A stretch of 64,000 nt of DNA from Candidatus Uhrbacteria bacterium (GCA_026395055.1 JAPLZK010000003.1:173987-237986); one strand, 5' to 3'; positions 19,822 through 51,388 are shown, numbered from the stretch's first letter. The notes: a model not told the origin generated them from the letters alone. Numbers and translations are program-made.

Positions 19822-19935
19822 TTACCCTTGACGTTGTTTATGTTTAGGATTTTTACAAATGACAACCACACGTCCTTTTCGGCGTGTGACACTGCAATCT
19901 TTACAAATTTTTTTTGCGGATGCTCGAACTTTCAT
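19822..19935 (-). CDS. rpmJ: 50S ribosomal protein L36
   Basis: Hand translation gives [37 protein letters not shown] (37 aa). It is below the 60-aa ORF-track cutoff and sits in the conserved position between infA and rpsM. Confidence 0.85.
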
Positions 19936-19981
19936 AATCTATAAACTTCACCGATGTTGCTCGATGAAGTTTGGAATCTTA

Positions 19982-20203
19982 TTAGAAACGATAAACGACA
20001 CGACCCTTTGTAAGGTCGTACGGACTAATTTCCACTTTCACGTCATCTCCAGGCAAAATGCGAATACGAAACTTGCGCATTTTTCCAGAAAGATAACCTG
20101 TGATGGTTTGTCCATTTTCCAGTTTCACTTTGAAATTTGCAGATGGTAGAAGTTCTTCTACCGTGCCTCGCATTTCAATAAAATCTTTTGTATCCTGACT
20201 CAT
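19982..20203 (-). CDS. infA: Translation initiation factor IF-1
   Basis: 73 aa S1-like OB fold ([42 protein letters not shown]). Confidence 0.95.
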
Positions 20204-34788: not shown

Positions 34789-37293
34789 TCAATCGAATTT
34801 TACGCTTTGTCCTACGTGCAACTTTCCAGATGTTGGTTGTTCAGGTGATTTCTCTGCGGGTTTTTCTACTGGTACCTCGACCGGTTTCGTATCAGGCGGT
34901 GGCACAACAATAGGTTCTGTGACAATCGGAGCGTGTGGAACTTCAACCCTTGGCTCTTGTCGCTCTGGTCGTTTTTGTTCTTGAAGAGATTTTAAGGAAA
35001 TAGTTTGTCCGGTTTGTGATAGTTGTGTGGTGATTTCACGGCGAACTTCTTGTGCTCGTGTATCAGAAATACGTTCAGATGCTCGAGGTGTTCCAGGTGA
35101 ATGAGCACTGGACTGCGGAGATTCTAAGCCAGTTCCTGTTTTCTTTTTGCGTTTACGCTTGCGTTTGCGTTTTTCTCCTTCGAGGACGGGGGCAGCCGAA
35201 TGTGGCGCTTGAGGCTCATTCGTTGTTTGTGAAGGAACGCGCGACAAATTCCCCATCGGTCGAACGGGTGTTGTTATGGGCGGAGACACTTGACCCCGCG
35301 CTGGAACGAGCGGTTGCGATTGCGGCTTTGATTCTTGAGGAACTCGAATTACAGGTTCGCTAGGCGTGTTTACAACAACAGGTTTTTGTTCAACACGAAC
35401 AACAGGCACTGGAATAATTGGTGCCTCGACAACAAGTTTTGGTTCTGGTTGAACAGGAGTTGGTTGTGATAATTCTGGTTTTGGAACAGATTCGACGACA
35501 GGTTGCGGTTTTGGCGCAACAACCACGGGTTCGGATCTTCTTTGTTCCATTGGTTGCGCGGTTGCGACGGGTTTTTGTTCCGGAATCTTTTCGTTCATCT
35601 GAGGTTCCTCTACAACAACCACCTCTACAGGCTTTGGCATGAGTGTTGAAAGAGAAATGGTTGGTTCGTCTGGTAACTTATGATCTTCAACTTCCTGAAC
35701 TTCCGATGAACGCATCTCACGAGGAGATGCTTCTTTGACAGGAACCTTTGGTGGAAGATTGCGTGTATCTGCTGGCTTACCCCCCGTTTTTCCTCCACGA
35801 TTATTCTTTTCCTCACGCACAATCTCAATACAATCTTCACAGTAAATTGGACGTGAGCGATCAAGTTCTACAGGCAAAACCATTTTTTTGCCGCAACGCG
35901 AACAATCATATTCAAATTTTGGCTTCTTTGCGTCCTTTGCTGCCACCTTGTCTGTTTTCTTTTTTTCTTCCGCTTCTGCAAGCATGGTATCAACATCCAT
36001 GTTTCCCATTCCGCTCCACGTCAAAATTTGTTCTTCAATAAATCCACGTTCTTTTGCGTAACGTTCTCGAGAAACTTTAATGACACGCTCTTCTGAATCT
36101 GTCTTTTGAGAAATTGGCGGAAGCGTGATGGCAGAAAACGGCTGACTTGTTACTCCGTTGATGAGCAACTTTAAGTACACGTTATATTTTGGAAGATTGA
36201 TAATGTCTTCTGGTAAAAAACGTGGGGCAAATTCTGTTTCCATGTACTTTGCGTCCGGAGAACCCACACGAAACGAAATAATTGTTCCGACGTTACCAAA
36301 AACCGCTTCACGCACTTCATCTGTAAGCTGCGCAATGTACTGGTGAGCAATGGTTAAACACAAACGATACTTACGTGCCTCAGACAAAATCCCAGCAAAA
36401 GAATCCACAGCAAAGTTTTGGAACTCATCAACGTACAAGTAAAAGTCCATACGGTCTTTTTCTTGCATGTCTACACGTTCCATGGCGGACAATTGCAATT
36501 TCGTAATCAACAGTCCTCCAAGTAAACGAGAACTATCTTCTCCAATACGTCCCTTGGAAAGGTTAACGATGAAAATCTTTCCAGAGTCCATGATTTCACG
36601 AATGTTGATACTGGATTTCACCTGCGCAACAATGTTTCTGATCACAGAAGCAGACAAAAACTGTCCAATCTTGTTTTGGATTGGAGCCACAGCCTCCTGC
36701 GCGTATTTTTCATTATACGAAGCAAACTCTCTCAACCAGAATTGTTTCACCACAGGATCCGTCACATTCGAAACAATACGCTTGCGATAATCTGCATCTG
36801 ACAACATGCGGTTGATTCCAAGCAGCGTTGATCCTTGGTTATCAAGCAATGCGAGAATCGTGTTGTTCAAAATGTACTCCATACGGGACGACCATTGGTC
36901 TTCCCAAATCTTTTTGAAAACTCCCATCATTCCACTTGCGACCAAGTGTTTATGTCGTTCAGAGACGGCCTCCAGGATATTAAATCCAACCGGATATTCC
37001 GCGTCAGATGGATTGAAGTACACAACATCGTTAATGCGCCAGCTTGGAATGTAATTGATGAGCTTTTCTGCCGTGTCTCCGTGAGGATCCACGTAACAAC
37101 AACCGTGTCCTGCGTAAATATCAGAAAGGGTGAGGTTCTCAAGGAGAACCGTCTTTCCCATACCTGTTTTTCCAATCACATACACATGTCGACGGCGATC
37201 GTCGGTTTTGATTCCAAATTTCGTCATCGCATTTCGGAAGTTTGTCTTCGCAAAATAGTTGACCTCGTTTTCATGTTCGTGATTGTAGCCCAT
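34789..37293 (-). CDS. VirD4/TraD/HerA-like (FtsK-HerA superfamily, T4 coupling-protein-like) ATPase with a C-terminal zinc ribbon and a long disordered Pro/Val/Glu-rich tail
   Basis: Walker A VIGKTGMGKT, Walker B LYVDEFQNF, and a TrwB/TraD-like C-terminal AAD motif (VFGNVGTIISFRVGSPDAKYMETEF). Zinc ribbon CSRCGKK...CEDC at about aa 460-480. A tail of roughly 350 aa rich in P/V/E/K with a KRKRKRKRKKK run. Confidence 0.7.
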   Translation of the reverse strand: MGYNHEHENEVNYFAKTNFRNAMTKFGIKTDDRRRHVYVIGKTGMGKTVLLENLTLSDIYAGHGCCYVDPHGDTAEKLINYIPSWRINDVVYFNPSDAEYPVGFNILEAVSERHKHLVASGMMGVFKKIWEDQWSSRMEYILNNTILALLDNQGSTLLGINRMLSDADYRKRIVSNVTDPVVKQFWLREFASYNEKYAQEAVAPIQNKIGQFLSASVIRNIVAQVKSSINIREIMDSGKIFIVNLSKGRIGEDSSRLLGGLLITKLQLSAMERVDMQEKDRMDFYLYVDEFQNFAVDSFAGILSEARKYRLCLTIAHQYIAQLTDEVREAVFGNVGTIISFRVGSPDAKYMETEFAPRFLPEDIINLPKYNVYLKLLINGVTSQPFSAITLPPISQKTDSEERVIKVSRERYAKERGFIEEQILTWSGMGNMDVDTMLAEAEEKKKTDKVAAKDAKKPKFEYDCSRCGKKMVLPVELDRSRPIYCEDCIEIVREEKNNRGGKTGGKPADTRNLPPKVPVKEASPREMRSSEVQEVEDHKLPDEPTISLSTLMPKPVEVVVVEEPQMNEKIPEQKPVATAQPMEQRRSEPVVVAPKPQPVVESVPKPELSQPTPVQPEPKLVVEAPIIPVPVVRVEQKPVVVNTPSEPVIRVPQESKPQSQPLVPARGQVSPPITTPVRPMGNLSRVPSQTTNEPQAPHSAAPVLEGEKRKRKRKRKKKTGTGLESPQSSAHSPGTPRASERISDTRAQEVRREITTQLSQTGQTISLKSLQEQKRPERQEPRVEVPHAPIVTEPIVVPPPDTKPVEVPVEKPAEKSPEQPTSGKLHVGQSVKFD

Positions 37294-37308: not shown

Positions 37309-38934
37309 TCAAACAGGAAGATCAGGTGGGGTAAATAATTCTTCGTCAGATGCGTCTGCGGGAGACGTATCCCCGAAACGACCTTTTGGTAAAAAGGCCT
37401 CTGCGTCTTCATGTTCTATGTCTGTAGGTGCTTTCAAGTGTGGAAGTGTTTCCGGTAATGGTTCTTTTGAAGTGACATATGTTCCTGCAAGACGAGATTC
37501 CGCAGATTCGTGATGTTCCATTGGCATTCCGCCTGGAAGAGGAAATTCATTATCCCCCGCTCCAGGCAACGTGTTCTCCAAGAATGTTGTTGGCAATCCA
37601 ACAGGAGGTTCTGCACGACGTGCTTCTGATTTCTTGATGAGTGGAGCTTTGATACTGATCGTTGGAAAATGCCAAAGCGTTGCCAACTCTTCTGCATTCA
37701 AATAAACAGGATTCGCCCCAATTCCCCAACTGCGCCCTTGAAACGCCTTCATGAGGATTGTTTGTTTTTTTTCATAATCCCACTTCTGCCAGAAGTAATC
37801 ATCCTTTGGAACAGAGGGACCATGCATCTTAAATGAATTCAAGTTCAAGTGAGAATACTGGTTCAAAATTCCCTTAATGATGGTTACACGATCTCCTTTT
37901 TTATAAACTGCCTTTTGCGCGCAATACACAATACGAATCTTCACGGCATGTCCAACCTTTATGGTTTTCTTCATGATGGCCTTTGCTTCATCTTGTTGTG
38001 CGGGACCAAGTTTAAATGCTTTCCAGGGATCTGCTTCTTTTGTTGCTTCTGACGCCATTCCAAAAAATGGCGCGAGATCGATTTCCGTAGCGTGAGCAAT
38101 TAATTCAAATGGTAATTTAAAAACAGTTTGTGCTGCAGCAACAAGGTCATTCTTCTTTGCCGCCTTATCTTCAACACCGAACGTTTTGTTTACATGTGCG
38201 ATTCCCGCCTTTTTCCATTCATGACCGGTTGGCTGAATAACCATCTGAAACCAAAAATGCTCCCCCGGTTTCATTTTAGACATTTGTTCGAGCGTGTAAC
38301 CAAGAGGATCTTTAATTTCTCCTGTCATTTGGTCTTCAAAATCCACATACGTTCGAATGGGAAAATGAGATTCCTTGTCTAACGTAAATTCCGCACCCCA
38401 CATGTCATATTTCTCATCGGGAAAGAGTTTTGGAACTTTTGTGACGTAATCATCAACCTCATTCATTTCCGCATCAGGATACTGCGCGTAAATACCTGCC
38501 TCAATGACGTCTCGGAATTTTGCTTGTGTACGAATAATAAACTGCATGTACCCTTCTTCTGAAACAATTTCAAAAGAAAACGTTGGCATGATTTTTCCAT
38601 CAAACCATTTTTCCTTAAATGTAGGACTAGATTTTGCCGCGTACAGTGCCGCAAATAAGTTTTCAAGCGCCTTTGGGGTTTGTTCTGTCATGGACGGAAC
38701 GTCAACCGCAAGACAAATATATTTTTGTTTTGCCGCGAACACTCCTTGTCGTTCTGCAAGCCACAATTCTGAAAAACCCCACAGAAGTGTTGTGAGGACA
38801 GGGATCCAACCAAACCAGACCAAGAGATCAAAAAAAATGACATCAATCGGTTGATTGAGGAAAGAAAGTGAAATCATTGGGACAGATGATTGCGCGGATT
38901 GTTGGATGATCTGAATCGCAAGCATGGGAAACAT
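37309..38934 (-). CDS. Hypothetical membrane protein (N-terminal TM hairpin plus about 450-aa soluble domain and an acidic Pro-rich C-terminus), co-operonic with the VirD4-like ATPase
   Basis: TM segments (VIFFDLLVWFGWIPVLTTLLWGF); no recognisable domain; 15-nt gap to the ATPase gene. Confidence 0.55.
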   Translation of the reverse strand: MFPMLAIQIIQQSAQSSVPMISLSFLNQPIDVIFFDLLVWFGWIPVLTTLLWGFSELWLAERQGVFAAKQKYICLAVDVPSMTEQTPKALENLFAALYAAKSSPTFKEKWFDGKIMPTFSFEIVSEEGYMQFIIRTQAKFRDVIEAGIYAQYPDAEMNEVDDYVTKVPKLFPDEKYDMWGAEFTLDKESHFPIRTYVDFEDQMTGEIKDPLGYTLEQMSKMKPGEHFWFQMVIQPTGHEWKKAGIAHVNKTFGVEDKAAKKNDLVAAAQTVFKLPFELIAHATEIDLAPFFGMASEATKEADPWKAFKLGPAQQDEAKAIMKKTIKVGHAVKIRIVYCAQKAVYKKGDRVTIIKGILNQYSHLNLNSFKMHGPSVPKDDYFWQKWDYEKKQTILMKAFQGRSWGIGANPVYLNAEELATLWHFPTISIKAPLIKKSEARRAEPPVGLPTTFLENTLPGAGDNEFPLPGGMPMEHHESAESRLAGTYVTSKEPLPETLPHLKAPTDIEHEDAEAFLPKGRFGDTSPADASDEELFTPPDLPV

Positions 38935-39016: not shown

Positions 39017-39940
39017 TTATTTTTTCTTTCCTTTTATCCCCTCCCATGTCACAAGCGCAGGGCTTGCAAGGAAGATAGATGAATACGTTCCCGCAATGAT
39101 TCCTACGATAAGGGCAAGGGAGAACGGACGTGTTGTGTCTCCTCCAAAGAAGAAGATGGCGGTTAAACACAGCAAGGTTGTCATGGATGTGCTAATGGAA
39201 CGACGAATGGTCTGGCGAATACTGACATCAACCGTTGTTTCAAAAGATGGACTGATGTGTTTGAGCAAGTTTTCACGCGTACGATCAAACACCACAATCG
39301 TGTCTGTAATGGAATAACCAAGAACAGTCAGAATGGCCGCTACGAATGCGGTATCAACTTCCCAATTGAGAAACTTTCCAAGAATCGCGAAGACGCCGAG
39401 CGGCACGACAACGTCATGGAATGCGGTGATAATGGTGAGAACACCGTATTTCCATGAAGCAACAGGATGTGTCACTTTACGAAAGGTAAAGGCGACGTAA
39501 GAACCGATGAGCACAAGAATCAAAATGATTCCAAACGCCGCAGACTTTTGTAATTCCTTTCCAATGACTGGACCGATGGAATCAAATTTTTCTTCCGCTG
39601 TTTTGTCTCCGTATGTTTTCTTAAGATCAGACAACAATGCTTGGTGCTGTTCTTCATTTAAACTCTCAAGACGAATGAGCGCTCCGTTCGTGCTTGTTGA
39701 TTGAACAATGACATCATTATGACCAAGTTTTGCAACGTGGTCGCGCAATTCTGTTGTGACAACCGGTTTTTCAAAAGAAACTTCAAGCAAACTTCCTCCC
39801 GTAAAATCGATTCCGAGTTTTAAGCCGAACATTCCGATGGAAACCACACACACAAGCACAATCGCTCCTGAAATGGCGTACCAAAGTTTTCTGTATTTAA
39901 CAATATGGATTTGCATAGGATTATGACTTGTTATCTTCAT
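39017..39940 (-). CDS. secF: Protein translocase subunit SecF
   Basis: SecF signature (GIDFTGGSLLEV) and a 6-TM C-terminal half. Confidence 0.9.
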   Translation of the reverse strand: MKITSHNPMQIHIVKYRKLWYAISGAIVLVCVVSIGMFGLKLGIDFTGGSLLEVSFEKPVVTTELRDHVAKLGHNDVIVQSTSTNGALIRLESLNEEQHQALLSDLKKTYGDKTAEEKFDSIGPVIGKELQKSAAFGIILILVLIGSYVAFTFRKVTHPVASWKYGVLTIITAFHDVVVPLGVFAILGKFLNWEVDTAFVAAILTVLGYSITDTIVVFDRTRENLLKHISPSFETTVDVSIRQTIRRSISTSMTTLLCLTAIFFFGGDTTRPFSLALIVGIIAGTYSSIFLASPALVTWEGIKGKKK

Positions 39941-41999
39941 TTTTCTTTACACCAAAGAGAATTGGTTTGTGTGTCCACTTCCAACCAAAGACGGTATGGA
40001 GATATTGGCGCGCCACATAAATTGCCGTAAACAAACTGAGAACGACTCCAATTCCAAGGGTGAGGGCAAATCCACGAATAAAGCTTGAACTGAACCAGTA
40101 CAACACAACAGAAGAGATGAGTGTGGTGAAGTGACCGTCACGAATTGCAGCCCATGCACGTCGTTCTGCTTCATCTGCGGAGGAGATTAATCCTCTACCT
40201 GATGCGTATTCCTCTTTCAAACGTTCAATAATGAGAACGTTGGCATCAACCGCAATACCAAGAGACAAAACAAGTCCAGCAATACCTGCAAGCGTAATGG
40301 TTACTCCAAAGAGTCTGTACGCAAGCATATTCAATGAAGAGAACAGGAGCAACGCAACAATTGCAATCACACCTGGCAAACGATACATGCCGATCATGTA
40401 AATGGTGACGAGCAAGAATCCGATAAGCGCCGCCATGATACTTTTTTGCAACGAGACAGATCCAAGTGTTGGACCAACAGTTTGTTGTGAAAGCAAGGTG
40501 ACAGGAACAGGAAGCGCACCCGCATTTAAGCGTTGTGCCAAAATCTTTGCTTCATCAAGGGTGAAGTTTCCGGTAATAACCGCACGACCACCATAAATAG
40601 CTGCCTGAACAACAGGAGTTGAAATAGGAGAACCATCAAGAAAAATCGCGATTGGTTTTCCAACGTTTGCGGCAGTGAGTGTTCCAAACAGATCCCCTCC
40701 GTCTTTATCAAACGTGATTCCAACATAAGGATTTCCTGTCTTTTGATCAAATTCTACAACCGCGCTTTGCAATTGCTTTCCAGAAAGTTGTGTGTTTTTC
40801 CAAGGTGACGCTGGAGGCAAAACATCTGCCATGGTGGAAAGCTTCATCGCGATACGTTGAATCTTAAACGCTGGGATCACTTTTTGATCTTGCTTATAAA
40901 TCAAATGGTATCCGAAGTCTGTTTCGACAATATCTGAGATTTTTCCAACAGGAAGCGTTTCTGCAGCCGCTCCAAATGCTGGGACGTATTTATCTGCAGT
41001 TGCGTATCCAAGATCTCCACCATTTGTTGCAGCGCTAGGATCTGTAGAGTTTTTCTTTGCGAGGTCTGCAAAGTTTTGTGGGGTTGCTTCCTTCTTTAAA
41101 TTTGAAATTTGAATATTCGCGTCTATTGCGGACGTATCCTTTGAACATCCCTGCTTGCCCTTTGAACAAATCAAGATGTGCGAAAGATGCATGTTATTTG
41201 CGGTTGTATTTTCAAGCACTTTGAAAATTTCAATAGAACCACCAGATTCAACGGTTTTCCAAAATACAGATCCTGCTTTTGGTTTGTTTTGTGTAAGTGC
41301 TTTTGCGATTTCAGGATATTGGGCAGAATCAGAAGTAATTTTTGGCATTATACCTTTTGTGTCTGCCTTTGCAGCTTCTGTACTTACCTCCGCAACAAGC
41401 TTATCAAAATCTTCTCCTTTTTGTGCACGAAGCAAAACGGCTTGTGCGGCAGCACGGTCTGCCTTTTGCAACTCTGCAAGTTTTGTTTGATCTGCCGCTG
41501 TTGGTTTTGTATCTGTTTTTGATCCTTGTTCTTTAAATTCCAAAACAGGTGTTTCTCCAATTTGTTTAATGGCATCAGAAACATTCAACACACCCGCAAG
41601 TTCCACAATCACACGAGACACTCCGCCTGTTGATGTGGTTTGTACGAGCGGTTCAGAAACACCAAACGCGTTTACACGACGTTCAATCACATCACGAACA
41701 CCAGAAAGAGCGTTTGCGCGATCTTTTTCTGGGATCTCTTTCATGTCCGCAGAATAAACAAGGTGTGTTCCACCCTGCAAATCAAGTCCAAGACGATATG
41801 CATGTTCGTTAAGCACTGGCAAAGAAACGTGCGCTTTCGCTTTTACAAATCCGGCCGTTACATTCCACGCGTGTGGAAAATCATAAAATCCCGCAACAAG
41901 TGTTACGATCAAAAAAACAACGGTTGCAACTTTTGCTTTCCATGGTTTATGAACTTTCTGTGCGTTCTGAGACGTTCGTTTGGTTTTCCAAGTTTGCAT
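39921..41999 (-). CDS. secD: Protein translocase subunit SecD carrying a tandem parvulin-type (PpiC) PPIase insertion in its periplasmic P1 domain
   Basis: SecD N-terminus, P1 segments and 6-TM C-terminus. Inserted at about aa 158-372 are two parvulin-like units, the second with clear PpiC motifs (HLSHILI...NGGDLGYA...VPAF...FGYHLIYK). Confidence 0.85.
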   Translation of the reverse strand: MQTWKTKRTSQNAQKVHKPWKAKVATVVFLIVTLVAGFYDFPHAWNVTAGFVKAKAHVSLPVLNEHAYRLGLDLQGGTHLVYSADMKEIPEKDRANALSGVRDVIERRVNAFGVSEPLVQTTSTGGVSRVIVELAGVLNVSDAIKQIGETPVLEFKEQGSKTDTKPTAADQTKLAELQKADRAAAQAVLLRAQKGEDFDKLVAEVSTEAAKADTKGIMPKITSDSAQYPEIAKALTQNKPKAGSVFWKTVESGGSIEIFKVLENTTANNMHLSHILICSKGKQGCSKDTSAIDANIQISNLKKEATPQNFADLAKKNSTDPSAATNGGDLGYATADKYVPAFGAAAETLPVGKISDIVETDFGYHLIYKQDQKVIPAFKIQRIAMKLSTMADVLPPASPWKNTQLSGKQLQSAVVEFDQKTGNPYVGITFDKDGGDLFGTLTAANVGKPIAIFLDGSPISTPVVQAAIYGGRAVITGNFTLDEAKILAQRLNAGALPVPVTLLSQQTVGPTLGSVSLQKSIMAALIGFLLVTIYMIGMYRLPGVIAIVALLLFSSLNMLAYRLFGVTITLAGIAGLVLSLGIAVDANVLIIERLKEEYASGRGLISSADEAERRAWAAIRDGHFTTLISSVVLYWFSSSFIRGFALTLGIGVVLSLFTAIYVARQYLHTVFGWKWTHKPILFGVKKNEDNKS

Positions 42000-42168: not shown

Positions 42169-42810
42169 ATGCGACGAAATGAAGAACTTGTATGGGTATT
42201 TGATATGGATGGCACACTCTACTCGAACGTCGAGTTGATGTGGCACGAAACGTTAAAAGAAATGCTCAAATATTTCCGAGACGAACTTCATCTCCCCGTA
42301 GACCTAAGTCTTGCGGAACAAGATCGTCTACGAGACAAATGGAATACACGGCAGACGACGGTCGCCTACTTCAACGAATTCAATCTCGATTTCGATAAAA
42401 TTGTTGAAGCGACACACTTGCCCATCTTGGACATGCTAATGATGGAGGGCCGAACAGGCCTACATTCGATCGCAGATCTTCCTGGAAGGAAAATTGTTCT
42501 GACGAATTCTCCGGAAGCATTTGCTCACGCTCTTTTGAAGAAGCTTGGAATTCACCAATACTTCGACGAAGTTCTTGGCATCCGTGGCGATCTGCAACAC
42601 GCAAAGCCAAATCCGCTCAGCTACGCGCGTGTCGTTACGGGACAAAGAACGATCATGGTTGAAGACTGGGAGGAAAACCTTCGTCTTCCACACATAAACG
42701 GCTGGACAACGGTCTGGTTCCCAGAATCCGACAAACCGCGCCCAACCACATTCCCCACACACGTTCATCACGAAATTCAGTCGCTTGCTGAACTCGCAAA
42801 CCTCGTCTAA
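42169..42810 (+). CDS. HAD-superfamily hydrolase
   Basis: Motif I DMDGTL at the N-terminus and a HAD core; a GGAGGG ribosome-binding site upstream. Confidence 0.75.
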   Translation: MRRNEELVWVFDMDGTLYSNVELMWHETLKEMLKYFRDELHLPVDLSLAEQDRLRDKWNTRQTTVAYFNEFNLDFDKIVEATHLPILDMLMMEGRTGLHSIADLPGRKIVLTNSPEAFAHALLKKLGIHQYFDEVLGIRGDLQHAKPNPLSYARVVTGQRTIMVEDWEENLRLPHINGWTTVWFPESDKPRPTTFPTHVHHEIQSLAELANLV

Positions 42811-42838: not shown

Positions 42839-43108
42839 TTATAGCCGTTCCGCAATTAAATATCGACAACCTTCCATACCAACGACTGCCACATGGCTTG
42901 TTCCGCGTGGAATCTCAAAATAATCATGTGCACCAAGATGAACGGTCTGATAGCCAATCGTCACTTCAATATCACCTGAGAAGATAACGATCTTGTGATC
43001 CCGATCATGCGCGTGTTCATCTTCTGCTTCATGCGCGAACGCATCTCGAAACAACAGGTTGTCATACCCGTCATGCAGCAATTCCTCGATCCATTCAGAT
43101 TCTGTCAT
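42839..43108 (-). CDS. Cupin-domain small protein
   Basis: 89 aa with a His-rich cupin motif (HEAEDEHAHDRDHKIVIFSGD...YFEIPRGTSHV). Confidence 0.6.
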   Translation of the reverse strand: MTESEWIEELLHDGYDNLLFRDAFAHEAEDEHAHDRDHKIVIFSGDIEVTIGYQTVHLGAHDYFEIPRGTSHVAVVGMEGCRYLIAERL

Positions 43109-43299: not shown

Positions 43300-43809
43300 C
43301 TAAACATCATTCGGAACAACAATCTCTTTTGGCAACTCAGCAAAGTGTTTTATCTCAATTTTTTCCGCACCATCAATAAACGCTTTTGTTAGACGATGAA
43401 TTCCATCCACAACAACGTTGTCTATAACTATAATTGGAAATTGTTTATAATCAGCCCTCTGAATTTTAAGGAGTTCATCCTTCCAATCTGGATGACGGGT
43501 AATCAGATCACTCCATTTCGTTTCTCCCTGAAACATTGCCGCTTCTTGGATGATTTGTGCTGGGCCAAGCCATTCCCCATTTGAATCATGCCAATAATTA
43601 TTCCCCTCTTCCACAGAAGATTCTAATCGTGAAAGATCTACAAATTGTGTTTCCAAGCCTTTTGAGAGTTCAATCAATTTATAAACATCAATGGTTTGAT
43701 CTTCAAATCCGGCTACATGTTTGTTATCAGGTGTTGATTCGATTGGGAACGTCTTTGCACCTGATTGCGATCGCAATACCTCACTCATAGAGTTAGGTTG
43801 TTCTCCCAT
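43300..43809 (-). CDS. ParB-like nuclease (ParB/Srx fold) domain protein
   Basis: C-terminal segment FPIIVIDNVVVDGIHRLTKAF matches the ParB N-domain DGxxR motif. Confidence 0.5.
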   Translation of the reverse strand: MGEQPNSMSEVLRSQSGAKTFPIESTPDNKHVAGFEDQTIDVYKLIELSKGLETQFVDLSRLESSVEEGNNYWHDSNGEWLGPAQIIQEAAMFQGETKWSDLITRHPDWKDELLKIQRADYKQFPIIVIDNVVVDGIHRLTKAFIDGAEKIEIKHFAELPKEIVVPNDV

Positions 43810-43896: not shown

Positions 43897-46659
43897 TTAT
43901 GCTCCGTGACACTTCTTATATTTCTTTCCGCTTCCACACGTACATGGATCATTTCTTCCCACCTTGTCATCATTCGATGTGCTTGCAACGGACGAATGTT
44001 CATTTGATGTTGTGGGTGCGCCTGCGAGGCGTACGCCCGCACGACTCAGGAGAGAGTCGTTGAGTTGCGCCTGAACCTTCATGTCCACAGCATGGCGAGC
44101 GAATTTGAAGAACGAGAATGTGACATCTTGGTTAATGACCGTGAGAAGCTGTTGGAACATGTCGTATCCTTCACGCTTATACTCAATCAAAGGATCACGC
44201 TGACCGTACCCTCTAAGGCCAATACCTGTTCTAAGAGATGTCATTGCAGACAAGTGCTCAATCCAAAGCATGTCGATGCTTCTGATGAGTGTTGCACGTT
44301 CAATGTGATAAACATCCATCTTTACTTCAAACAAGTCATGGATTTTGCGATACTCGTCTTTCACAACAGACATGATTGTATCAATCATCTTTGTGCGAGT
44401 TTCTACAACGTCATGCTTGTCCTTTGCGTTGTGAATGGTTATTGCTTCTAGTTTTGATTTGGATTCCGGATCAAGGGTGACGATTGTGTTCACGGTTTCA
44501 ATGATTTCTTTTGTATTCCAGTCCCCTGACCCGACGTCTTCCGCCCCTTCTGCTTTATGTACAGGGGAAAGAACTTTTTCACCCGTGTGAAATAAGACAA
44601 CTTGCTCTACTTCCCCTTCGATAATATCAAGAACGCGTTCCTTTAACGTTTCTGGTTCTTTTTCAAATGCCTCAAGCACTTCAATACGACGACCATAAAT
44701 AACTTCACGATGCTTGTTTAAAACATCATCGTATTCAAGCAAGTGCTTACGCATATCAAAGTTATGACCCTCAACACGCACCTGCGCTTTTTCAATGGAA
44801 CTTGTGATCATGCCGTTCTCAATAGGCATATCGTCTGGAATTCCGAGTCTGTCCATCATGTTTTTTGCGCGATCTGAACCGAAGATACGCATCAGGTCAT
44901 CTTCCATGGAGATATAAAATTGTGTAGAACCAGGATCCCCTTGTCGACCAGATCGACCACGGAGCTGGTTGTCGATGCGTCTCGATTCATGACGTTCTGT
45001 TCCAAGAACGTGTAATCCTCCCAATTCTCGAACACGAGCTTCGTCCTCTTTTGTTCCTGGATTTCCTCCGAGCTTAATGTCTACTCCACGACCAGCCATG
45101 TTTGTCGCAACCGTTACAGCCCCAACACGACCGGCCTGCGCAATGATTTCTCCTTCACGCGCGTGGTTTTTTGCATTCAAAATTTCATGCTTTACTCCAG
45201 CACTCGTTAGCAATTCAGAAAGCAATTCGTTTTTTTCAACAGACGCCGTACCAACAAGAACGGGTTGTCCAGCGAATTGGCGTTCTTTAATTTCACGAAT
45301 CACTGCCTCAAACTTTCCAAGTTCAGATTTAAACACACGATCCGGAAGATCTTTACGCGCAACCGCAACGTTCGTTGGAATCTCTGTCACTTCGAGCTTA
45401 TAGATCTTTGAGAATTCTTCTGCTTCTGTTGCGGCAGTTCCTGTCATTCCAGACAGCTTAGTATACATGCGGAAATAATTTTGGAACGTGATTGTGGCGA
45501 GTGTCTGACTTTCATTTTGAATAGGGACGCCTTCTTTTGCTTCAATCGCTTGGTGAATTCCTTCTGAGAAACGTCGGCCCTGCATGAGGCGACCTGTAAA
45601 TTCATCAACAATAAGGACTTCATTGTTTTGCACAACGTAGTGAACATCTTTTTGATAGTTTGCACGCGCGCGAAGCGCAGAATCCGCAAATCGCTGAAAC
45701 ATGATTCCAGAACCTGCTGCATACAAGTTTTCAATTCCAAGGGCTTTTTCAATTTTTTCAACACCCGCATCTGTAAACGCGGCCGTGCGAAGTTTTTCAT
45801 CAACGTTATAATCTTCATTTTCGATGAGCGTTTTTGTGATGTGCGCTAAACGCACATACAGCTCATTCGATTTTTCTGCCGGAGCGGAAATAATAAGTGG
45901 TGTACGCGCTTCATCAATCAAAATAGAGTCGATTTCATCAACGATGGCGAAATGGAGGCCGCGCATAACCATGTCTTGAACGGTTGGCGCCATGTTGTCA
46001 CGCAAATAATCAAACCCGTATTGGTTATTTGTACCGTACGTGATATCTGCCTTATACGCATCTCTGCGATCAACTGGACGCAAAAAATCTTCACGAACTT
46101 TAAACGATTCGATTTGGATCTGTTCTTCTGATCCCACTTCTTGTTCTGGATGTTTGAATAAAGGATCGTACAATAATCCAGTTTCATGCTGAATAACTCC
46201 AATACTCATTCCAAGGAAATGAAAAATTTGCCCCATCCAAACCGCGTCACGACGCGCAAGATAATCATTCACGGTGACAAGGTGACATCCTTTTCCTTCA
46301 AGAGCGTTCGCGTACAGTGCGAGCGTGGAGGTAAGGGTCTTTCCTTCACCCGTGCGCATTTCTGCAATCATTCCTCTGTACAAAACAATTCCACCCATGA
46401 GCTGGACATCAAAGTGTCTTTGACCGAGTGTGCGCTTTGAAGCTTCTCTTACAACCGCAAACGCTTCATACAAAAGACTATCAACACTTCTTCCTTGTGC
46501 GATCATTTCACGAAACTCAACTGTCTTGTGTTTCAGCGCTTCATCCGAAAGCATGCTGATCTCACCTTCCAGTTTATTGATTTTTTCTACTTCACCCTGT
46601 AATTCCGCAATCACCTTTTTATTCGGGTCTCCAAAAATCAGATTATAGAATTTGCTCAT
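43897..46659 (-). CDS. secA: Protein translocase ATPase SecA
   Basis: 920 aa with a DEAD-like motor (AEMRTGEGKTL) and a C-terminal zinc-binding tail (CTCGSGKKYKKCHG). Confidence 0.95.
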   Translation of the reverse strand: MSKFYNLIFGDPNKKVIAELQGEVEKINKLEGEISMLSDEALKHKTVEFREMIAQGRSVDSLLYEAFAVVREASKRTLGQRHFDVQLMGGIVLYRGMIAEMRTGEGKTLTSTLALYANALEGKGCHLVTVNDYLARRDAVWMGQIFHFLGMSIGVIQHETGLLYDPLFKHPEQEVGSEEQIQIESFKVREDFLRPVDRRDAYKADITYGTNNQYGFDYLRDNMAPTVQDMVMRGLHFAIVDEIDSILIDEARTPLIISAPAEKSNELYVRLAHITKTLIENEDYNVDEKLRTAAFTDAGVEKIEKALGIENLYAAGSGIMFQRFADSALRARANYQKDVHYVVQNNEVLIVDEFTGRLMQGRRFSEGIHQAIEAKEGVPIQNESQTLATITFQNYFRMYTKLSGMTGTAATEAEEFSKIYKLEVTEIPTNVAVARKDLPDRVFKSELGKFEAVIREIKERQFAGQPVLVGTASVEKNELLSELLTSAGVKHEILNAKNHAREGEIIAQAGRVGAVTVATNMAGRGVDIKLGGNPGTKEDEARVRELGGLHVLGTERHESRRIDNQLRGRSGRQGDPGSTQFYISMEDDLMRIFGSDRAKNMMDRLGIPDDMPIENGMITSSIEKAQVRVEGHNFDMRKHLLEYDDVLNKHREVIYGRRIEVLEAFEKEPETLKERVLDIIEGEVEQVVLFHTGEKVLSPVHKAEGAEDVGSGDWNTKEIIETVNTIVTLDPESKSKLEAITIHNAKDKHDVVETRTKMIDTIMSVVKDEYRKIHDLFEVKMDVYHIERATLIRSIDMLWIEHLSAMTSLRTGIGLRGYGQRDPLIEYKREGYDMFQQLLTVINQDVTFSFFKFARHAVDMKVQAQLNDSLLSRAGVRLAGAPTTSNEHSSVASTSNDDKVGRNDPCTCGSGKKYKKCHGA

Positions 46660-48121: not shown

Positions 48122-49726
48122 TTACTTACAACCCGGTGTCCATTTATGTGTGCAGGTGTTCCCAATACAGGCATCAACCGTGCACCCCTGACCATCGTCG
48201 TTGCATACACCCTCTTGCGGGTTTGCATATGGGAGGAAAACACATCCTTTCTTTGCTTCATCACACGCGTCCGACGTGCACCCGTTTCCATCACTACACA
48301 CGTATGCGTCATGAACGGAACACATCGAATCTTTGCACTTGTCGTTGATGGTACACAGGAGTCCATCGTCGCATTTCAGGGCGTTTGGAACGTGCGTACA
48401 GAGCATGCTTGCACAGACATCTGTTGTGCAAACGTTTCCGTCGTCCAAACATTTTGTGCCATCCGGTTCTTGCGGGTGCATGCATTTGCCGTCCGCGCAT
48501 TTGTCTTGCGTACAGGCATTACCATCATCCGTGCATTTGCCGTCAGATGACGCAGCGTGTTTGCAACCCGTGAATGGATCACACGAATCCGTTGTGCACG
48601 GATCGTTGTCGTTGCAATTCAACGTACTTCCGCCGATGCATGTCCCCGCAGCGCACTGTGAAAGTGCGGTGCAAATATTTGCGTCATCACAGGCAGAACT
48701 GGTGAGAGGTGTATGTTTGCATCCACCATCAGTGTTGCAGACATCTGTCGTACAGCTATTGCCGTCGTCGCAGAGATCTTCATCGGTCTTGCCGTCACAA
48801 TCGTCATCCTTTCCATTACAGGTTTCGGGTGACGCATCCGGCGCATTGCAGATGGCTTTGCCGTCGCTGCAGGCAATGAACTTTCCAAGGCATGTGCCGA
48901 ATTCGTTCTTCTTGTCACATTGAACACCAAATGTATTCTCGTCGATGTTGTCCGTCTTTGCATCGCAGTTGTCGTCTTTCCCGTTACAGATTTCCTGTTC
49001 AGGGACTTGACCGACACATCCAGACAATCCATTCACCGTACACGTACGAGTACCCGCACAAGACCCAAAAGGATTTGTGTTGGCACAGGCCGTAGAAAAA
49101 CCTTTCTGGATGGCAAAGGGCGAACACGCACATGTTGCGTTTCCAGAAGGGAGACACTGTGAGCTTCCAGCCCCGCTCTTTGGATCCGTGACGAATTTGC
49201 ACGTATATCCTTTGGGGCAATCATCGCTCACTGGGTCACAGGTCACTCCACAAAAACTCCCCGCGTCACCATGACTGATGCACGCATTGTTCGAGTCTTT
49301 GGCAAAGTTGCATTGATCGTTTGTCGTGCACGGATTACACAGGTTCAACAAGCGAGAAACACAGACGAACTGAACATCTGTTCCACCACCTACAACCTGT
49401 CCGCATGCGTATCCACTTTGACACGACTGTACACAGATCATCGAGCACTTTTTCCCGTTCTCTGTTTGTAAACAAAGACCGGAATCACAATCATCTGAAT
49501 GTTCACACGCGTAGCCAAACTGACCCGGCGTGATCATGACATCACTTTGCGTTGAGACAAGTACGTCCGTGAACACATCTGCCGTGAGTACCGCATCGAG
49601 TTTTGCATCTCCCGCAACGTCTGCGTTCGATGTGTCCCCATTGGACGGCGCTAAGATCTGATCAGTACCACATCCAATCGATGTGCAGATGAGGCAAAAA
49701 AGACAGATTTTTTGAGAGAGCGTCAT
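48122..49726 (-). CDS. Cysteine-rich tandem-repeat lipoprotein (about 16 copies of the C-D-D-G-N-x-C-T-x-D-x-C motif)
   Basis: Signal/lipobox-like N-terminus (MTLSQKICLFCLICTSIGCG) with an AGGAGG ribosome-binding site 8 nt upstream of the ATG at 49726. Repeated DGNxCTxDxC units such as DGNACTQDKCADGKC and DGNVCTTDVCASMLC. Confidence 0.7.
   Translation of the reverse strand: MTLSQKICLFCLICTSIGCGTDQILAPSNGDTSNADVAGDAKLDAVLTADVFTDVLVSTQSDVMITPGQFGYACEHSDDCDSGLCLQTENGKKCSMICVQSCQSGYACGQVVGGGTDVQFVCVSRLLNLCNPCTTNDQCNFAKDSNNACISHGDAGSFCGVTCDPVSDDCPKGYTCKFVTDPKSGAGSSQCLPSGNATCACSPFAIQKGFSTACANTNPFGSCAGTRTCTVNGLSGCVGQVPEQEICNGKDDNCDAKTDNIDENTFGVQCDKKNEFGTCLGKFIACSDGKAICNAPDASPETCNGKDDDCDGKTDEDLCDDGNSCTTDVCNTDGGCKHTPLTSSACDDANICTALSQCAAGTCIGGSTLNCNDNDPCTTDSCDPFTGCKHAASSDGKCTDDGNACTQDKCADGKCMHPQEPDGTKCLDDGNVCTTDVCASMLCTHVPNALKCDDGLLCTINDKCKDSMCSVHDAYVCSDGNGCTSDACDEAKKGCVFLPYANPQEGVCNDDGQGCTVDACIGNTCTHKWTPGCK
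48150..49250 (-). repeat. Coding tandem repeat array (units of about 78-84 nt, Cys-rich motif) inside the lipoprotein gene
   Basis: Periodic recurrence of the DGNxCTxDxC peptide motif. Confidence 0.55.
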
Positions 49727-49843
49727 CAAGGAAACCTCCTGGCATGGGCAAGCAACATGCCCAGAGATCTTTTCAGAAAAAAATGAAATTGTCAATAGTT
49801 TAGATAAAAAAATCCTCCTTTCAGGTGAAAGAAGGAAGAGGTG

Positions 49844-51388
49844 TCAGGGGACGCAATTACCAATCGGGACGAAAACACATTTGCCTGTGGTTGGATTGCA
49901 CGAATCGGAGGTGCACTTGTTTTGGTCGTCGCACACAAGCGGAGGCTTGCTAATGCAGACACTGTTGTTGCACTTGTCACCGGTTGTGCACGCATCGCCA
50001 TCGTCGCACGGATCGTTGTTGACGTTTGTGAAGATGCATCCCGTTTTTGGATTACAGATGTCATCCGTACACGAGTTACCGTCATCACACTTGTAAACCT
50101 TACCTACACATGTTGTTGCGGAGCACTCACTCGCAAGCGTACATGCGTCGCCGTCGTCGCAGGAGTAACCCTGGTTGGCCGTGTGGTTACACACGCCAAT
50201 GGCTGGGTCACAACTATCGTTCGTACAGACATTATTGTCATTACAAGTCTGCGACAGTCCTTTGCAATTGTTGCCGTAACAGATGTCGCCGATTGTACAG
50301 GCATTGTTGTCATTGCACGGATCCTTGTCGTGAACCGTGAACTGACAGCCTGTTGCCGCAATACACGAATCTTCCGTGCAATCATTTCCGTCCGCGCACT
50401 GCTTCTGCTTGCCAATGCAAACACCAAGCGAGCACTGATCGTCCGTGGTGCACAGACTATTGTCACTACAAGAAAACACGTTTGGAATAGGCGTATGAAC
50501 GCACACACCCGTCCCGGAATCACACGAGTCTGCCGTGCAGACATTATTGTCGTTGCAATTCTTCTGGTTTCCTGAGACACACTGACTCTTTTGACACGTG
50601 TCATTCTGCGTACAAAAGTCCCCGTCGTTGCAATTCGCCCCGTCTGCTTGGGGTGTCGAATAACATCCAGCAACCTTGTCACACAGATCCGCCGTACACG
50701 CGTTCCCGTCATTGCACGTAATTGGCGTTCCGGCACAAGCACCCTTTGCGCACTGATCCGGTGCCGTACAGGCATTGCCGTCATCACACGGATCGTTCGT
50801 GAGCTTTTCATGAACGCACTGGTTGATTTCGTTACAGTAGTCCTTTGTGCATTGATCTGCATCATCACAGTCCACGGCCTTGCCGAGACAGTTGCCGTTC
50901 AGACAATGGTCGTTGTTCGTGCAGACGCTTCCGTCGTCGCATGGGATGTCGATGTTCACGTGCGAGCATCCTGCGATCTTGTCGCAAGGATCAAGCGTGC
51001 AAGGTTTGCCATCTGAACAGTCGACTCCCTTTGGACCAACACATGTTCCGATTGCAGAACAAACATCGCCCGTCGTACAGACATCGCCATCAGAACACGC
51101 GGTACCTTGTGGCGAAGGCTGGTGATGACACTCACCCGTTCCCGGGTCGCACCAATCTTGCTGACAAGGAGTCTTCGTGTCGCACTGTTCGTGCGTCACA
51201 CAGACAAATACATCTGCCGCAATTTCCGGCCCAGTGTCTTGTGGGACATCCGGCGGAAGATCGGGCGAACCCGAGTCCATCGAAACATCACCAGCAACTT
51301 CAGGAGGTGCAGAAACAATGGTCGAATCCGAGCACGCCGATACATAAACACAACCAACGATCAAAAGGGCTTTCGTCAAACGATTCAC
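49844..51388 (-). CDS. Cysteine-rich tandem-repeat lipoprotein, paralog of the adjacent gene (about 16 repeats)
   Basis: Lipoprotein signal (LLIVGCVY). Repeats include DGDVCTTGDVC, DGKPCTLDPCD, DGNACTAPDQC, DGNACTADLCD, DNNVCTADSCD, DGNDCTEDSC and DGNSCTDDICN. A GGAGG site lies upstream. Confidence 0.7.
   Translation of the reverse strand: MNRLTKALLIVGCVYVSACSDSTIVSAPPEVAGDVSMDSGSPDLPPDVPQDTGPEIAADVFVCVTHEQCDTKTPCQQDWCDPGTGECHHQPSPQGTACSDGDVCTTGDVCSAIGTCVGPKGVDCSDGKPCTLDPCDKIAGCSHVNIDIPCDDGSVCTNNDHCLNGNCLGKAVDCDDADQCTKDYCNEINQCVHEKLTNDPCDDGNACTAPDQCAKGACAGTPITCNDGNACTADLCDKVAGCYSTPQADGANCNDGDFCTQNDTCQKSQCVSGNQKNCNDNNVCTADSCDSGTGVCVHTPIPNVFSCSDNSLCTTDDQCSLGVCIGKQKQCADGNDCTEDSCIAATGCQFTVHDKDPCNDNNACTIGDICYGNNCKGLSQTCNDNNVCTNDSCDPAIGVCNHTANQGYSCDDGDACTLASECSATTCVGKVYKCDDGNSCTDDICNPKTGCIFTNVNNDPCDDGDACTTGDKCNNSVCISKPPLVCDDQNKCTSDSCNPTTGKCVFVPIGNCVP
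49900..51150 (-). repeat. Coding tandem repeat array (about 26-28-aa Cys-rich units)
   Basis: Periodic DGNxCTxDxC motif. Confidence 0.55.

What the first reader, a model, noticed from the sequence alone, without database searches (positions are those of the whole stretch)
40886..41528. SecD with a tandem parvulin (PpiC) PPIase inserted in the periplasmic P1 domain
SecD is 692 aa. About 215 residues inserted into the P1 head show two parvulin-like units. The second has canonical PpiC residues (HLSHILI, GGDLGYA, VPAF, FGYHLIYK). A foldase built into the SecDF translocon subunit would couple export with prolyl isomerisation, which is normally done by separate PrsA/SurA-type proteins. I am not aware of this as a standard SecD architecture.
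Basis: partly seen in the sequence, partly recalled or inferred. Interest (0 to 1): 0.65.

Follow-up and report, generated by a model that had tools for sequence, protein, structure and literature searches.

The report
SecD with built-in double parvulin foldase
In this ultra-small groundwater bacterium (Candidatus Uhrbacteria), and in at least 80 related species, the protein-export motor subunit SecD carries two prolyl-isomerase-type folding domains inserted into its moving outer arm, so export and folding help are probably joined in one protein.

Summary
The ORF at 39921-41999 (-) is a 692-aa SecD, 100% identical to a Candidatus Uhrbacteria protein. About 213 residues (aa 160-372) sit between the P1-base strand VLEFKE and the P1 head. 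T. thermophilus and D. radiodurans SecDF have 20-40 residues there.

This is not a one-off. All 80 best loci from species-representative genomes (Uhr-, Falkow-, Magasanik-, Buchananbacteria and other Patescibacteria) carry the same architecture, nearly all with secF downstream. Databases call it plain "SecD", and I found no paper describing it.

The function, a foldase/chaperone riding on the SecD P1 head, is inferred. It matches the proposed non-covalent SurA(P1,P2)-SecDF P1-head contact in E. coli and the PrsA-like dome on the Mycoplasma translocon. Whether the genome lacks a separate PrsA could not be tested. It is a new variant of known kinds, of moderate to high interest.

The parts
39921..41999 (-). 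secD coding sequence, 692 aa, with the inserted double parvulin
   Evidence: ORF list. Pfam and NCBIfam hits. 100% identical to NCBI 'protein translocase subunit SecD [Candidatus Uhrbacteria bacterium]'.
41880..41945 (-). TM1 of SecD (aa about 19-40)
   Evidence: AF2 helix 19-40. The hydrophobic stretch VATVVFLIVTLVAGF can be read directly in the sequence.
41526..41807 (-). GG motif plus the N-terminal part of the P1 base (aa 65-158), ending in the strand VLEFKE
   Evidence: Pfam Sec_GG 69-87 and SecD_1st 101-158. Aligns to T. thermophilus SecDF 30-119.
41211..41522 (-). Parvulin-like unit 1 (aa 160-263): degenerate, non-catalytic, with no N-terminal beta1
   Evidence: Pfam Rotamase E 1.7e-6, profile positions 13-95 of 97. 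hhalign against unit 2: probability 99%, E 7e-18. The catalytic positions are I/V/D at 217 and N/S/E at 257. The NCBIfam SurA model aligns 176-373 to model positions 191-384.
40884..41210 (-). Parvulin unit 2 (aa 264-372): canonical PpiC-type PPIase domain
41145..41168 (-). Cys pair C278...C285 (CSKGKQGC) in the beta1-alpha1 loop of unit 2
   Evidence: Translation. Both Cys are kept in 185 of 187 fusion proteins. A disulfide is inferred, not shown.
40797..40883 (-). Return strand and linker (aa 373-401). The strand consensus Y-T-[IV]-[QS]-[RH]-[IV]-L-M resembles a parvulin beta1
   Evidence: AF2 strand running to aa 386 at pLDDT above 90. Placing this strand in front of unit 1 extends the profile alignment to unit 2 from 75 to 100 columns and raises the score from 94 to 102. 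That it pairs with unit 1 is an inference.
40500..40796 (-). P1 head subdomain of SecD (aa 402-500)
   Evidence: Pfam SecDF_P1_head E 5e-31, profile positions 18-114 of 114. Aligns to Tt SecDF from residue 159 onward.
39960..40499 (-). TM2-TM6 of SecD (aa 501-680), including the invariant Asp585 in GIAVDANVL
   Evidence: Pfam SecD_SecF_C. D585 is invariant in A1. GIAVDANVL aligns to GAAVDGNVL of 3aqp.
39017..39940 (-). secF, 307 aa, overlapping the end of secD by 20 nt
   Evidence: Pfam SecD_SecF_C E 1.6e-53 and Sec_GG E 9e-11. Coordinates. secF follows the fused secD in nearly all of the 80 related loci.

Best explanation
This is a functional SecD. A SurA-like cassette of two parvulin domains has been inserted into its large extracytoplasmic P1 domain, exactly at the junction where the mobile P1 head begins.

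Shown by computation:
- It is one intact ORF.
- All SecD modules and the proton-relay Asp are conserved.
- Unit 2 is a canonical parvulin with conserved catalytic residues.
- Unit 1 is a homologous but catalytically dead parvulin.
- The insert is modelled with high confidence.
- The architecture is under long-term conservation across many Patescibacteria species, with secF adjacent.

Inferred mechanism: the P1 head of SecDF binds the polypeptide emerging from SecYEG and swings between the membrane-facing and upright forms, driven by the proton gradient (PMC5974789). The parvulin pair rides on that arm. The inactive unit 1 would act as a substrate-holding or positioning domain, as in SurA P1 and PpiD. 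Unit 2 would catalyse cis-trans isomerisation of Xaa-Pro bonds. Secreted and surface proteins would then receive chaperoning and prolyl isomerisation at the moment they are pulled out.

This is a covalent version of the PrsA / PpiD-YfgM / SurA associations with the translocon. It would suit very small, gene-poor cells.
For: Architecture: Pfam and NCBIfam hits, and alignments to the 3aqp and 5xan SecDF structures that define the insertion site.

Catalytic residues in 187 homologs: H274 98%, H365 99%, D329 71% (a further 7% have E), F362 88%.

Unit 1 is homologous to unit 2 (E 7e-18) but has lost the catalytic residues.

Conservation: the 120 best database hits, down to 55% identity, share the architecture. 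Of the 150 closest 50%-identity cluster representatives, about 18-20 are SecD fusions. All 80 best loci from GTDB species representatives carry secdN-u1-u2-head-TM, followed by secF or fused to it wherever the contig extends far enough.

Motor residues: D585 is invariant.

Precedents for non-covalent coupling: AlphaFold and EM work places the SurA P1 and P2 parvulin domains on the SecDF P1 head (PMC9987972). In Mycoplasma, PrsA-like proteins form a dome on the Sec translocon, and Mpn444 crosslinks to SecD.
Against: - No activity data exist.
- D329, the equivalent of the Pin1 Cys113 / Par10 Asp position, varies in 29% of homologs.
- PPIase activity is dispensable for the chaperone function of SurA, and PpiD's parvulin is inactive (my knowledge of those families). 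Catalysis may therefore not be the selected function.
- The full-length model has pTM of only 0.43, so the position of the parvulins relative to the P1-head cavity and to SecYEG is unknown.
- I could not show that the organism lacks other extracytoplasmic foldases.
- The insert evolves faster than the SecD core. Mean identity to the query is 34% for unit 1 and 53% for unit 2, against 62-74% for the core.
Confidence: 0.65

Rival explanations
1. The parvulin pair is mainly a holdase or docking arm. It binds unfolded chains or recruits partners, and prolyl isomerase catalysis is irrelevant. This would match SurA, whose chaperone function does not need its parvulin domains, and PpiD, whose parvulin is inactive.
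For: Unit 1 is conserved although it is catalytically dead. D329 is replaced by S, Y, N or E in about 29% of homologs. The best structural match is the chaperone SurA.
Against: The two catalytic His residues, and the FGYH and GGDLG motifs of unit 2, are kept in 88-99% of 187 sequences whose full-length identity to the query falls to about 41% in the related loci. Insert identity falls to about 30% in the most divergent representative. That is more than a purely structural role would require.
Confidence: 0.22
2. The insert serves SecDF itself or the envelope rather than substrates. It could be a structural spacer that lifts the P1 head, a replacement for missing translocon partners such as YajC or PpiD/YfgM, or a contact to the wall or S-layer.
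For: The same position in P1 tolerates large unrelated insertions. In the gammaproteobacterial SecD model PRK12933, query residue 402 maps to model position 313, against position 132 in the generic TIGR01129 model.
Against: A spacer would not need conserved parvulin active-site residues. No evidence for wall or S-layer contacts was found.
Confidence: 0.08
3. The finding is an artefact: a chimeric assembly or gene call, or ordinary P1 sequence misread as parvulin.
For: None was found. The one weak point is that BLASTP between the two units is not significant (E 0.47).
Confidence: 0.01

Closest known systems
SurA (periplasmic chaperone of Gram-negative bacteria; PDB 1m5y)
   Same: Two consecutive parvulin domains, with the first inactive-like and the second canonical. 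It is the best two-domain structural match (E 2.6e-10, 249 columns, 27% identity). The NCBIfam SurA model aligns across both units. AlphaFold models place SurA's P1 and P2 domains on the SecDF P1 head (PMC9987972).
   Different: There is no SurA_N chaperone domain and no C-terminal tail. The score of 61 bits is far below the 394-bit cutoff. The cassette is covalently embedded in SecD. The host clade probably has no outer membrane or BAM, so the substrates must differ.
PrsA (lipoprotein foldase of monoderm bacteria; PDB 4wo7, 6vj6)
   Different: PrsA is a separate lipoprotein with a single parvulin nested in an N/C chaperone domain. Here there is no lipobox and no N/C domain. The tether is SecD itself, and there are two parvulin units. 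The NCBIfam PrsA score of 48 bits is far below the 343-bit cutoff.
PpiD-YfgM at the E. coli SecYEG translocon (PDB 8zht; PMC9643414)
   Different: PpiD is a separate single-pass protein that associates non-covalently. It has SurA_N-like chaperone regions and no active parvulin.
Mycoplasma pneumoniae Sec translocon dome (Mpn444/436/489, PrsA-like; bioRxiv 10.1101/2025.04.25.650208 and 10.1101/2024.09.05.611430)
   Same: A genome-reduced bacterium in which parvulin-type foldases are associated near-obligately with SecDF and SecYEG. Mpn444 crosslinks to SecD.
   Different: There the foldases are large separate lipoproteins that form a dome. Here the parvulins are two small domains inside the SecD polypeptide.
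Ordinary SecD/SecDF (T. thermophilus 3aqp, D. radiodurans 5xan, E. coli 5mg3)
   Same: TM1, P1 base, P1 head, TM2-6, the GG motif and the TM4 Asp are all present and align. secF is adjacent.
   Different: The insertion site holds 20-40 residues in Tt and Dr SecDF, and an unrelated segment of about 180 residues in gammaproteobacterial SecD. No solved SecD structure has a parvulin there.

Membership tests
SecD (protein translocase subunit; TIGR01129) | Score above the curated equivalog-domain cutoff | tested here: met
   TIGR01129 scores 337 bits against a cutoff of 244.4, E 1.7e-100.
SecD (protein translocase subunit; TIGR01129) | Topology of TM1, a large extracytoplasmic P1 (base plus head), then five C-terminal TM helices | tested here: met
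   Pfam Sec_GG, SecD_1st, SecDF_P1_head and SecD_SecF_C. AF2 helices 19-40 and 510-671. Foldseek gives SecDF structures as the top hits, E 2e-23.
SecD (protein translocase subunit; TIGR01129) | Conserved TM4 Asp of the proton pathway | tested here: met
   D585 in GIAVDANVL aligns with GAAVDGNVL of 3aqp. It is invariant in 94 homologs.
SecD (protein translocase subunit; TIGR01129) | Partner secF encoded adjacently | tested here: met
   secF at 39017-39940 (-), Pfam E 1.6e-53. The same arrangement occurs in nearly all 80 related loci.
SecD (protein translocase subunit; TIGR01129) | Stimulates Sec-dependent translocation using the proton-motive force | not testable with these tools
   Requires biochemistry or genetics.
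Parvulin / PpiC-type PPIase domain (PF00639) | Profile match above the gathering score | tested here: met
   Unit 2 scores 72.4 bits and unit 1 scores 29.4 bits, both against a cutoff of 21.7.
Parvulin / PpiC-type PPIase domain (PF00639) | The beta-alpha3-beta-alpha-beta2 fold | tested here: met
Parvulin / PpiC-type PPIase domain (PF00639) | Active-site residues: two His plus Asp/Cys (the Pin1 H59, C113, H157 equivalents) | tested here: met
   Met for unit 2: H274, D329 and H365 are present and are 98%, 71% and 99% conserved. Not met for unit 1, which has I217 and E257 at the aligned positions and no beta1 His.
Parvulin / PpiC-type PPIase domain (PF00639) | Measurable cis-trans prolyl isomerase activity | not testable with these tools
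   Requires an enzyme assay.
SurA | SurA_N chaperone domain plus a C-terminal tail framing two parvulins; full-length equivalog score | tested here: not met
   No SurA_N Pfam hit. NF008038 scores 61.3 bits against a cutoff of 394. Only the P1-P2 cassette is shared.
PrsA | Lipoprotein with an N/C chaperone domain around one parvulin; equivalog score | tested here: not met
   NF002827 scores 48.4 bits against a cutoff of 343. The only N-terminal element is the SecD TM1.

The most novel reading that the evidence does not exclude
SecD of this Patescibacteria clade is a self-contained translocation-folding motor. The proton-driven swing of the P1 head hands the emerging chain directly to an on-board pair of parvulins, one holding and one catalytic.

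The pair would have an unusual nested topology. Unit 1 would be completed by a beta1-like strand that follows unit 2, which brings the two ends of the insert together. A near-invariant Cys pair would staple the substrate loop of unit 2.

The fusion would be a natural 'Rosetta stone' showing that tandem parvulin chaperones act at the SecDF P1 head in bacteria generally. It may also be the only extracytoplasmic prolyl isomerase in these reduced genomes.
Probability: 0.3. Interest if true: 0.75.

Novelty: new variant of a known kind. Interest (0 to 1): 0.58.

Why it matters
How proteins leaving SecYEG are received by folding factors is an active question. The current evidence for contact between SecDF and a parvulin chaperone is indirect or comes from one unusual organism:
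- low-resolution EM and AlphaFold models for SurA with SecDF in E. coli;
- crosslinks and in-cell tomography in Mycoplasma.

A gene fusion that places a SurA-like parvulin pair exactly at the SecD P1 head is independent evolutionary evidence that the two activities work together at that spot. The fusion is conserved in at least 80 species-level genomes of the Patescibacteria.

It also offers a compact, single-polypeptide system for testing translocation-coupled folding by structure determination and biochemistry. And it is a possible example of how very small genomes consolidate envelope functions.

Tried and rejected
- BLASTP of unit 1 against unit 2 was not significant (E 0.47). Only profile methods showed the homology.
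- The afdb50 fold library was unavailable. I therefore could not list AlphaFold-database proteins with the same full architecture.
- A weak parvulin-profile hit at 19832-20146 (+) (E 0.004) lies antisense to the IF-1 (infA)-type ORF at 19982-20203 (-). I rejected it as chance.
- The listing of cluster members gave almost no taxonomy for the divergent fusion clusters.
- I tried to learn whether the clade also has free-standing parvulins. The nearest free-standing relatives of the insert are triple-parvulin proteins of Planctomycetota, Myxococcota and Deltaproteobacteria, and SurA_N-parvulin proteins of Woesearchaeota. None is named as Patescibacteria. These searches were not designed to prove absence, so the question stays open. 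One paper reports PrsA annotations in CPR generally (PMC9166423).
- The idea that the SecD strand VLEFKE supplies beta1 of unit 1 got no support. The profile alignment did not extend.
- The return strand on its own is too short to score (probability 3%).
- Two loci carry non-CPR record titles (Acutalibacteraceae, Binatia), and many carry 'uncultured Gammaproteobacteria'. Their SecDs cluster with other fusion-type SecDs. I treat these titles as unreliable labels, but I could not verify that.

Full report
**Observation**

The minus-strand ORF at 39921-41999 encodes a 692-aa protein. secF follows at 39017-39940 and overlaps it by 20 nt. secA lies 1.9 kb upstream at 43897-46659. The protein is 100% identical to an NCBI entry named 'protein translocase subunit SecD [Candidatus Uhrbacteria bacterium]' on a 367,614-bp contig.

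Pfam finds these domains:
- Sec_GG at 69-87
- SecD_1st at 101-158
- Rotamase at 274-370 (E 8.8e-26, two stretches)
- Rotamase_3 at 257-372
- SecDF_P1_head at 402-498 (profile positions 18-114 of 114)
- SecD_SecF_C at 502-668

NCBIfam TIGR01129 (SecD) scores 337 bits against a cutoff of 244. The finding's coordinates, 40886-41528, correspond to aa 158-371. The quoted motifs are present exactly.

**Where the insert sits**

Against T. thermophilus SecDF (3aqp), residues 65-159 align to Tt 30-119, ending in the strand VLEFKE / VLEFRI. Residues 404-668 align to Tt 159-423. D. radiodurans SecDF (5xan) gives the same break points. About 245 residues therefore occupy a place that holds 20-40 residues in the solved SecDF structures. 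This place is the transition from the P1 base to the mobile P1 head.

The generic SecD model maps residue 402 to model position 132. The gammaproteobacterial model PRK12933 maps it to position 313. This region of P1 therefore tolerates large lineage-specific insertions. No part of the E. coli SecD chain 5mg3_D matched the parvulin region.

**What the insert is**

*Unit 2 (aa 264-372)* is a canonical parvulin.
- On its own it gives Rotamase_3 E 7e-23 and Rotamase E 6e-20.
- It matches SurA domain II, PrsA and Par10 sequences in the PDB.

*Unit 1 (aa 160-263)* is also a parvulin, but a degenerate one.
- It passes the Pfam Rotamase gathering score (29.4 bits against 21.7, E 1.7e-6). The match covers only profile positions 13-95, so beta1 is missing.
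- Unit 1 of more distant fusion proteins scores 1.9e-17 and 1.7e-15, again without beta1.
- Profile-profile comparison of unit 1 with unit 2 gives 92.7% probability and E 4e-7 with 94 sequences. With 187 sequences it gives 99.0% and E 7e-18.
- The aligned catalytic positions are lost. D329 corresponds to I/V/D at 217, and H365 corresponds to N/S/E at 257.

*Structure prediction:*
- The full-length AF2 model has pLDDT 81.9, with 88-93 across the insert.
- A model of aa 148-408 alone has pLDDT 92 and pTM 0.73. It shows the element order beta-alpha-alpha-alpha-beta-alpha-beta-beta twice.
- The best Foldseek hit is full-length SurA, aligned over 249 columns and therefore over both units (E 2.6e-10, 27% identity).
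- The NCBIfam SurA model likewise aligns 176-373 to model positions 191-384.
- The order, an inactive-like unit followed by a canonical one, is the same as SurA P1-P2 (my knowledge of SurA).

**Conservation**

I aligned 187 fusion proteins: 94 database homologs, 80 species-representative loci and 13 distant cluster representatives. Conservation of key residues out of 187:

| Residue | Sequences keeping it |
|---|---|
| H274 | 183 |
| H365 | 186 |
| F362 | 165 |
| D329 | 132 (E 13, S 14, Y 13, N 8) |
| C278 and C285 | 185 each |

C278 and C285 lie in the beta1-alpha1 loop of unit 2.

Mean identity to the query, by region:

| Region | Identity |
|---|---|
| Unit 1 | 34% |
| Unit 2 | 53% |
| Return segment | 40% |
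| P1 base | 74% |
| P1 head | 68% |
| TM2-6 | 62% |

The insert evolves faster than the SecD core but keeps its active-site signature. The SecD proton-pathway Asp (D585) is invariant.

**Distribution**

- All 120 best hits in the 5.8-billion-protein collection, down to 55% identity, have the SecD plus Rotamase domain set. They are named only 'SecD'.
- An exhaustive search of 1.84 billion cluster representatives with the insert found 18,503 proteins at E <= 1e-3. Of the best 150, about 18-20 are SecD fusions, with insert identity down to 30%. The rest are free-standing multi-parvulin proteins.
All 80 best loci match the whole insert.
- Every one of those 80 has a single ORF with the order SecD-N, unit 1, unit 2, P1 head, TM. 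Nearly all have secF next to it. One, L079, appears to be a SecD-parvulin-SecF fusion.
- Record titles name Candidatus Uhrbacteria, Falkowbacteria, Magasanikbacteria, Buchananbacteria, 'Parcubacteria group' and 'Patescibacteria group'.
- The many 'uncultured Gammaproteobacteria' titles, and single Acutalibacteraceae and Binatia titles, are probably unreliable labels. Their SecDs cluster with the other fusion-type SecDs. I could not verify this.

**A possible nested topology (inference)**

Unit 1 lacks an N-terminal beta1. In both models a long strand continues from beta4 of unit 2 to aa 386. Its consensus, Y-T-[IV]-[QS]-[RH]-[IV]-L-M, resembles the beta1 motif L-S-H-I-L-I of unit 2. In some lineages it reads ISHIF or VRHIL.

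Placing this strand in front of unit 1 extends the profile alignment with unit 2 from 75 to 100 columns and raises the score from 94 to 102. Placing the SecD strand VLEFKE in front gives no extension. This suggests that the return strand completes unit 1, so that the two ends of the insert meet. I could not inspect the coordinates, so this remains a hypothesis.

**Mechanism**

According to the structure-based model of SecDF, the P1 head has an amphiphilic cavity that contacts precursor proteins. The head swings between the Super-F, F and I forms, coupled to proton flow (PMC5974789). The insert is attached where that head begins.

The best-supported reading is a foldase-chaperone module carried on the moving arm. 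Unit 1 would hold or position the chain and unit 2 would isomerise prolyl bonds as the chain leaves SecYEG.

Three published observations make this plausible:
- In E. coli, SurA binds the SecYEG-SecDF-YidC holo-translocon. All AlphaFold models place SurA's P1 and P2 parvulin domains on the SecDF P1 head (PMC9987972).
- PpiD-YfgM sits at SecYEG (PMC9643414).
- In Mycoplasma pneumoniae, PrsA-like proteins form a dome on the Sec translocon, and Mpn444 crosslinks to SecD.

The fusion here joins the same two partners covalently.

The main rival is that the module acts only as a holdase and catalysis is irrelevant. The variable D329 and the SurA and PpiD precedents support that view. The near-invariant His pair argues against it.

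**Not established**

- No enzymatic or chaperone activity has been shown.
- The position of the parvulins relative to SecY is unknown. The full-length pTM is only 0.43.
- A disulfide between C278 and C285 has not been shown.
- It is unknown whether these genomes lack a separate PrsA-like foldase. The 64-kb window contains no other parvulin. My searches for free-standing relatives retrieved proteins of Planctomycetota and Myxococcota and of Woesearchaeota, with none named as Patescibacteria. These searches cannot prove absence. One survey reports PrsA annotations among CPR in general (PMC9166423).

**Novelty**

The sequences have been public for years and carry precomputed Rotamase and SecD Pfam hits, but they are annotated simply as SecD. 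Four full-text searches combining SecD/SecDF with parvulin, PPIase, PrsA, fusion, and Patescibacteria or CPR found no paper describing the architecture. The library lacks most subscription journals, so a prior description cannot be excluded.

I class the finding as a new variant of known kinds: SecD plus a SurA-type parvulin cassette. It is not a new kind of system.

Interest is moderate to high. A Sec specialist would find a clade-wide, covalent SecD-foldase fusion notable. It also bears directly on the current question of how translocation is coupled to folding.

Noticed in passing
window 37309-38934 (-) and 34789-37293 (-): Directly downstream of secF lies a 541-aa predicted membrane protein with no Pfam hit. 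It is followed by an 834-aa protein with TrwB_AAD_bind and TraG-D_C domains, resembling a type IV secretion coupling-protein ATPase. This may be a secretion or DNA-uptake pair on the same strand as secDF.
   Followed up: partly
window 48122-49795 (-) and 49844-51388 (-): Two adjacent Cys-rich proteins carry Dicty_CTDC repeats (E 7e-14 and 4e-47). They lie in a stretch with higher GC, 0.49-0.51 against 0.42-0.45 nearby. They are probably secreted or surface proteins that would need extracytoplasmic folding.
   Followed up: partly
window 41145-41168 (-), i.e. SecD C278...C285; proteins P0167, P0402, P0426, P0509: The Cys pair H-I-L-I-C-x6-C in the beta1-alpha1 loop of unit 2 is kept in 185 of 187 fusions. 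It also occurs in free-standing SurA_N-parvulin proteins (P0167, P0231, P0239), one of which (P0167) also has a thioredoxin-like domain and is labelled Candidatus Woesearchaeota archaeon. P0167 is 52% identical to unit 2. Relatives of P0239 (P0402, P0426, P0509) are labelled Woesearchaeota too, but I did not check them for the motif. This could reflect a shared parvulin subtype or gene exchange between CPR bacteria and DPANN archaea.
   Followed up: partly
L079 3449-6538 (+) (Candidatus Magasanikbacteria MFQZ01000010.1): In this locus the SecD-parvulin ORF appears to continue into the SecF-type TM domain. It would be a single SecD-parvulin-SecF polypeptide.
   Followed up: no
protein P0192 (286 aa, metagenomic): The SecDF_P1_head domain (56-140) precedes a Rotamase domain (171-280), which is the opposite order to the window protein. 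It may be a second way of joining the two domains, or a fragment.
   Followed up: no
window 43300-43809 (-) and 42839-43108 (-): Between secA and secD lie a 169-aa ORF with no Pfam hit, an 89-aa cupin-domain ORF, and on the plus strand a HAD-family hydrolase at 42169-42810. They have no evident link to secretion.
   Followed up: no
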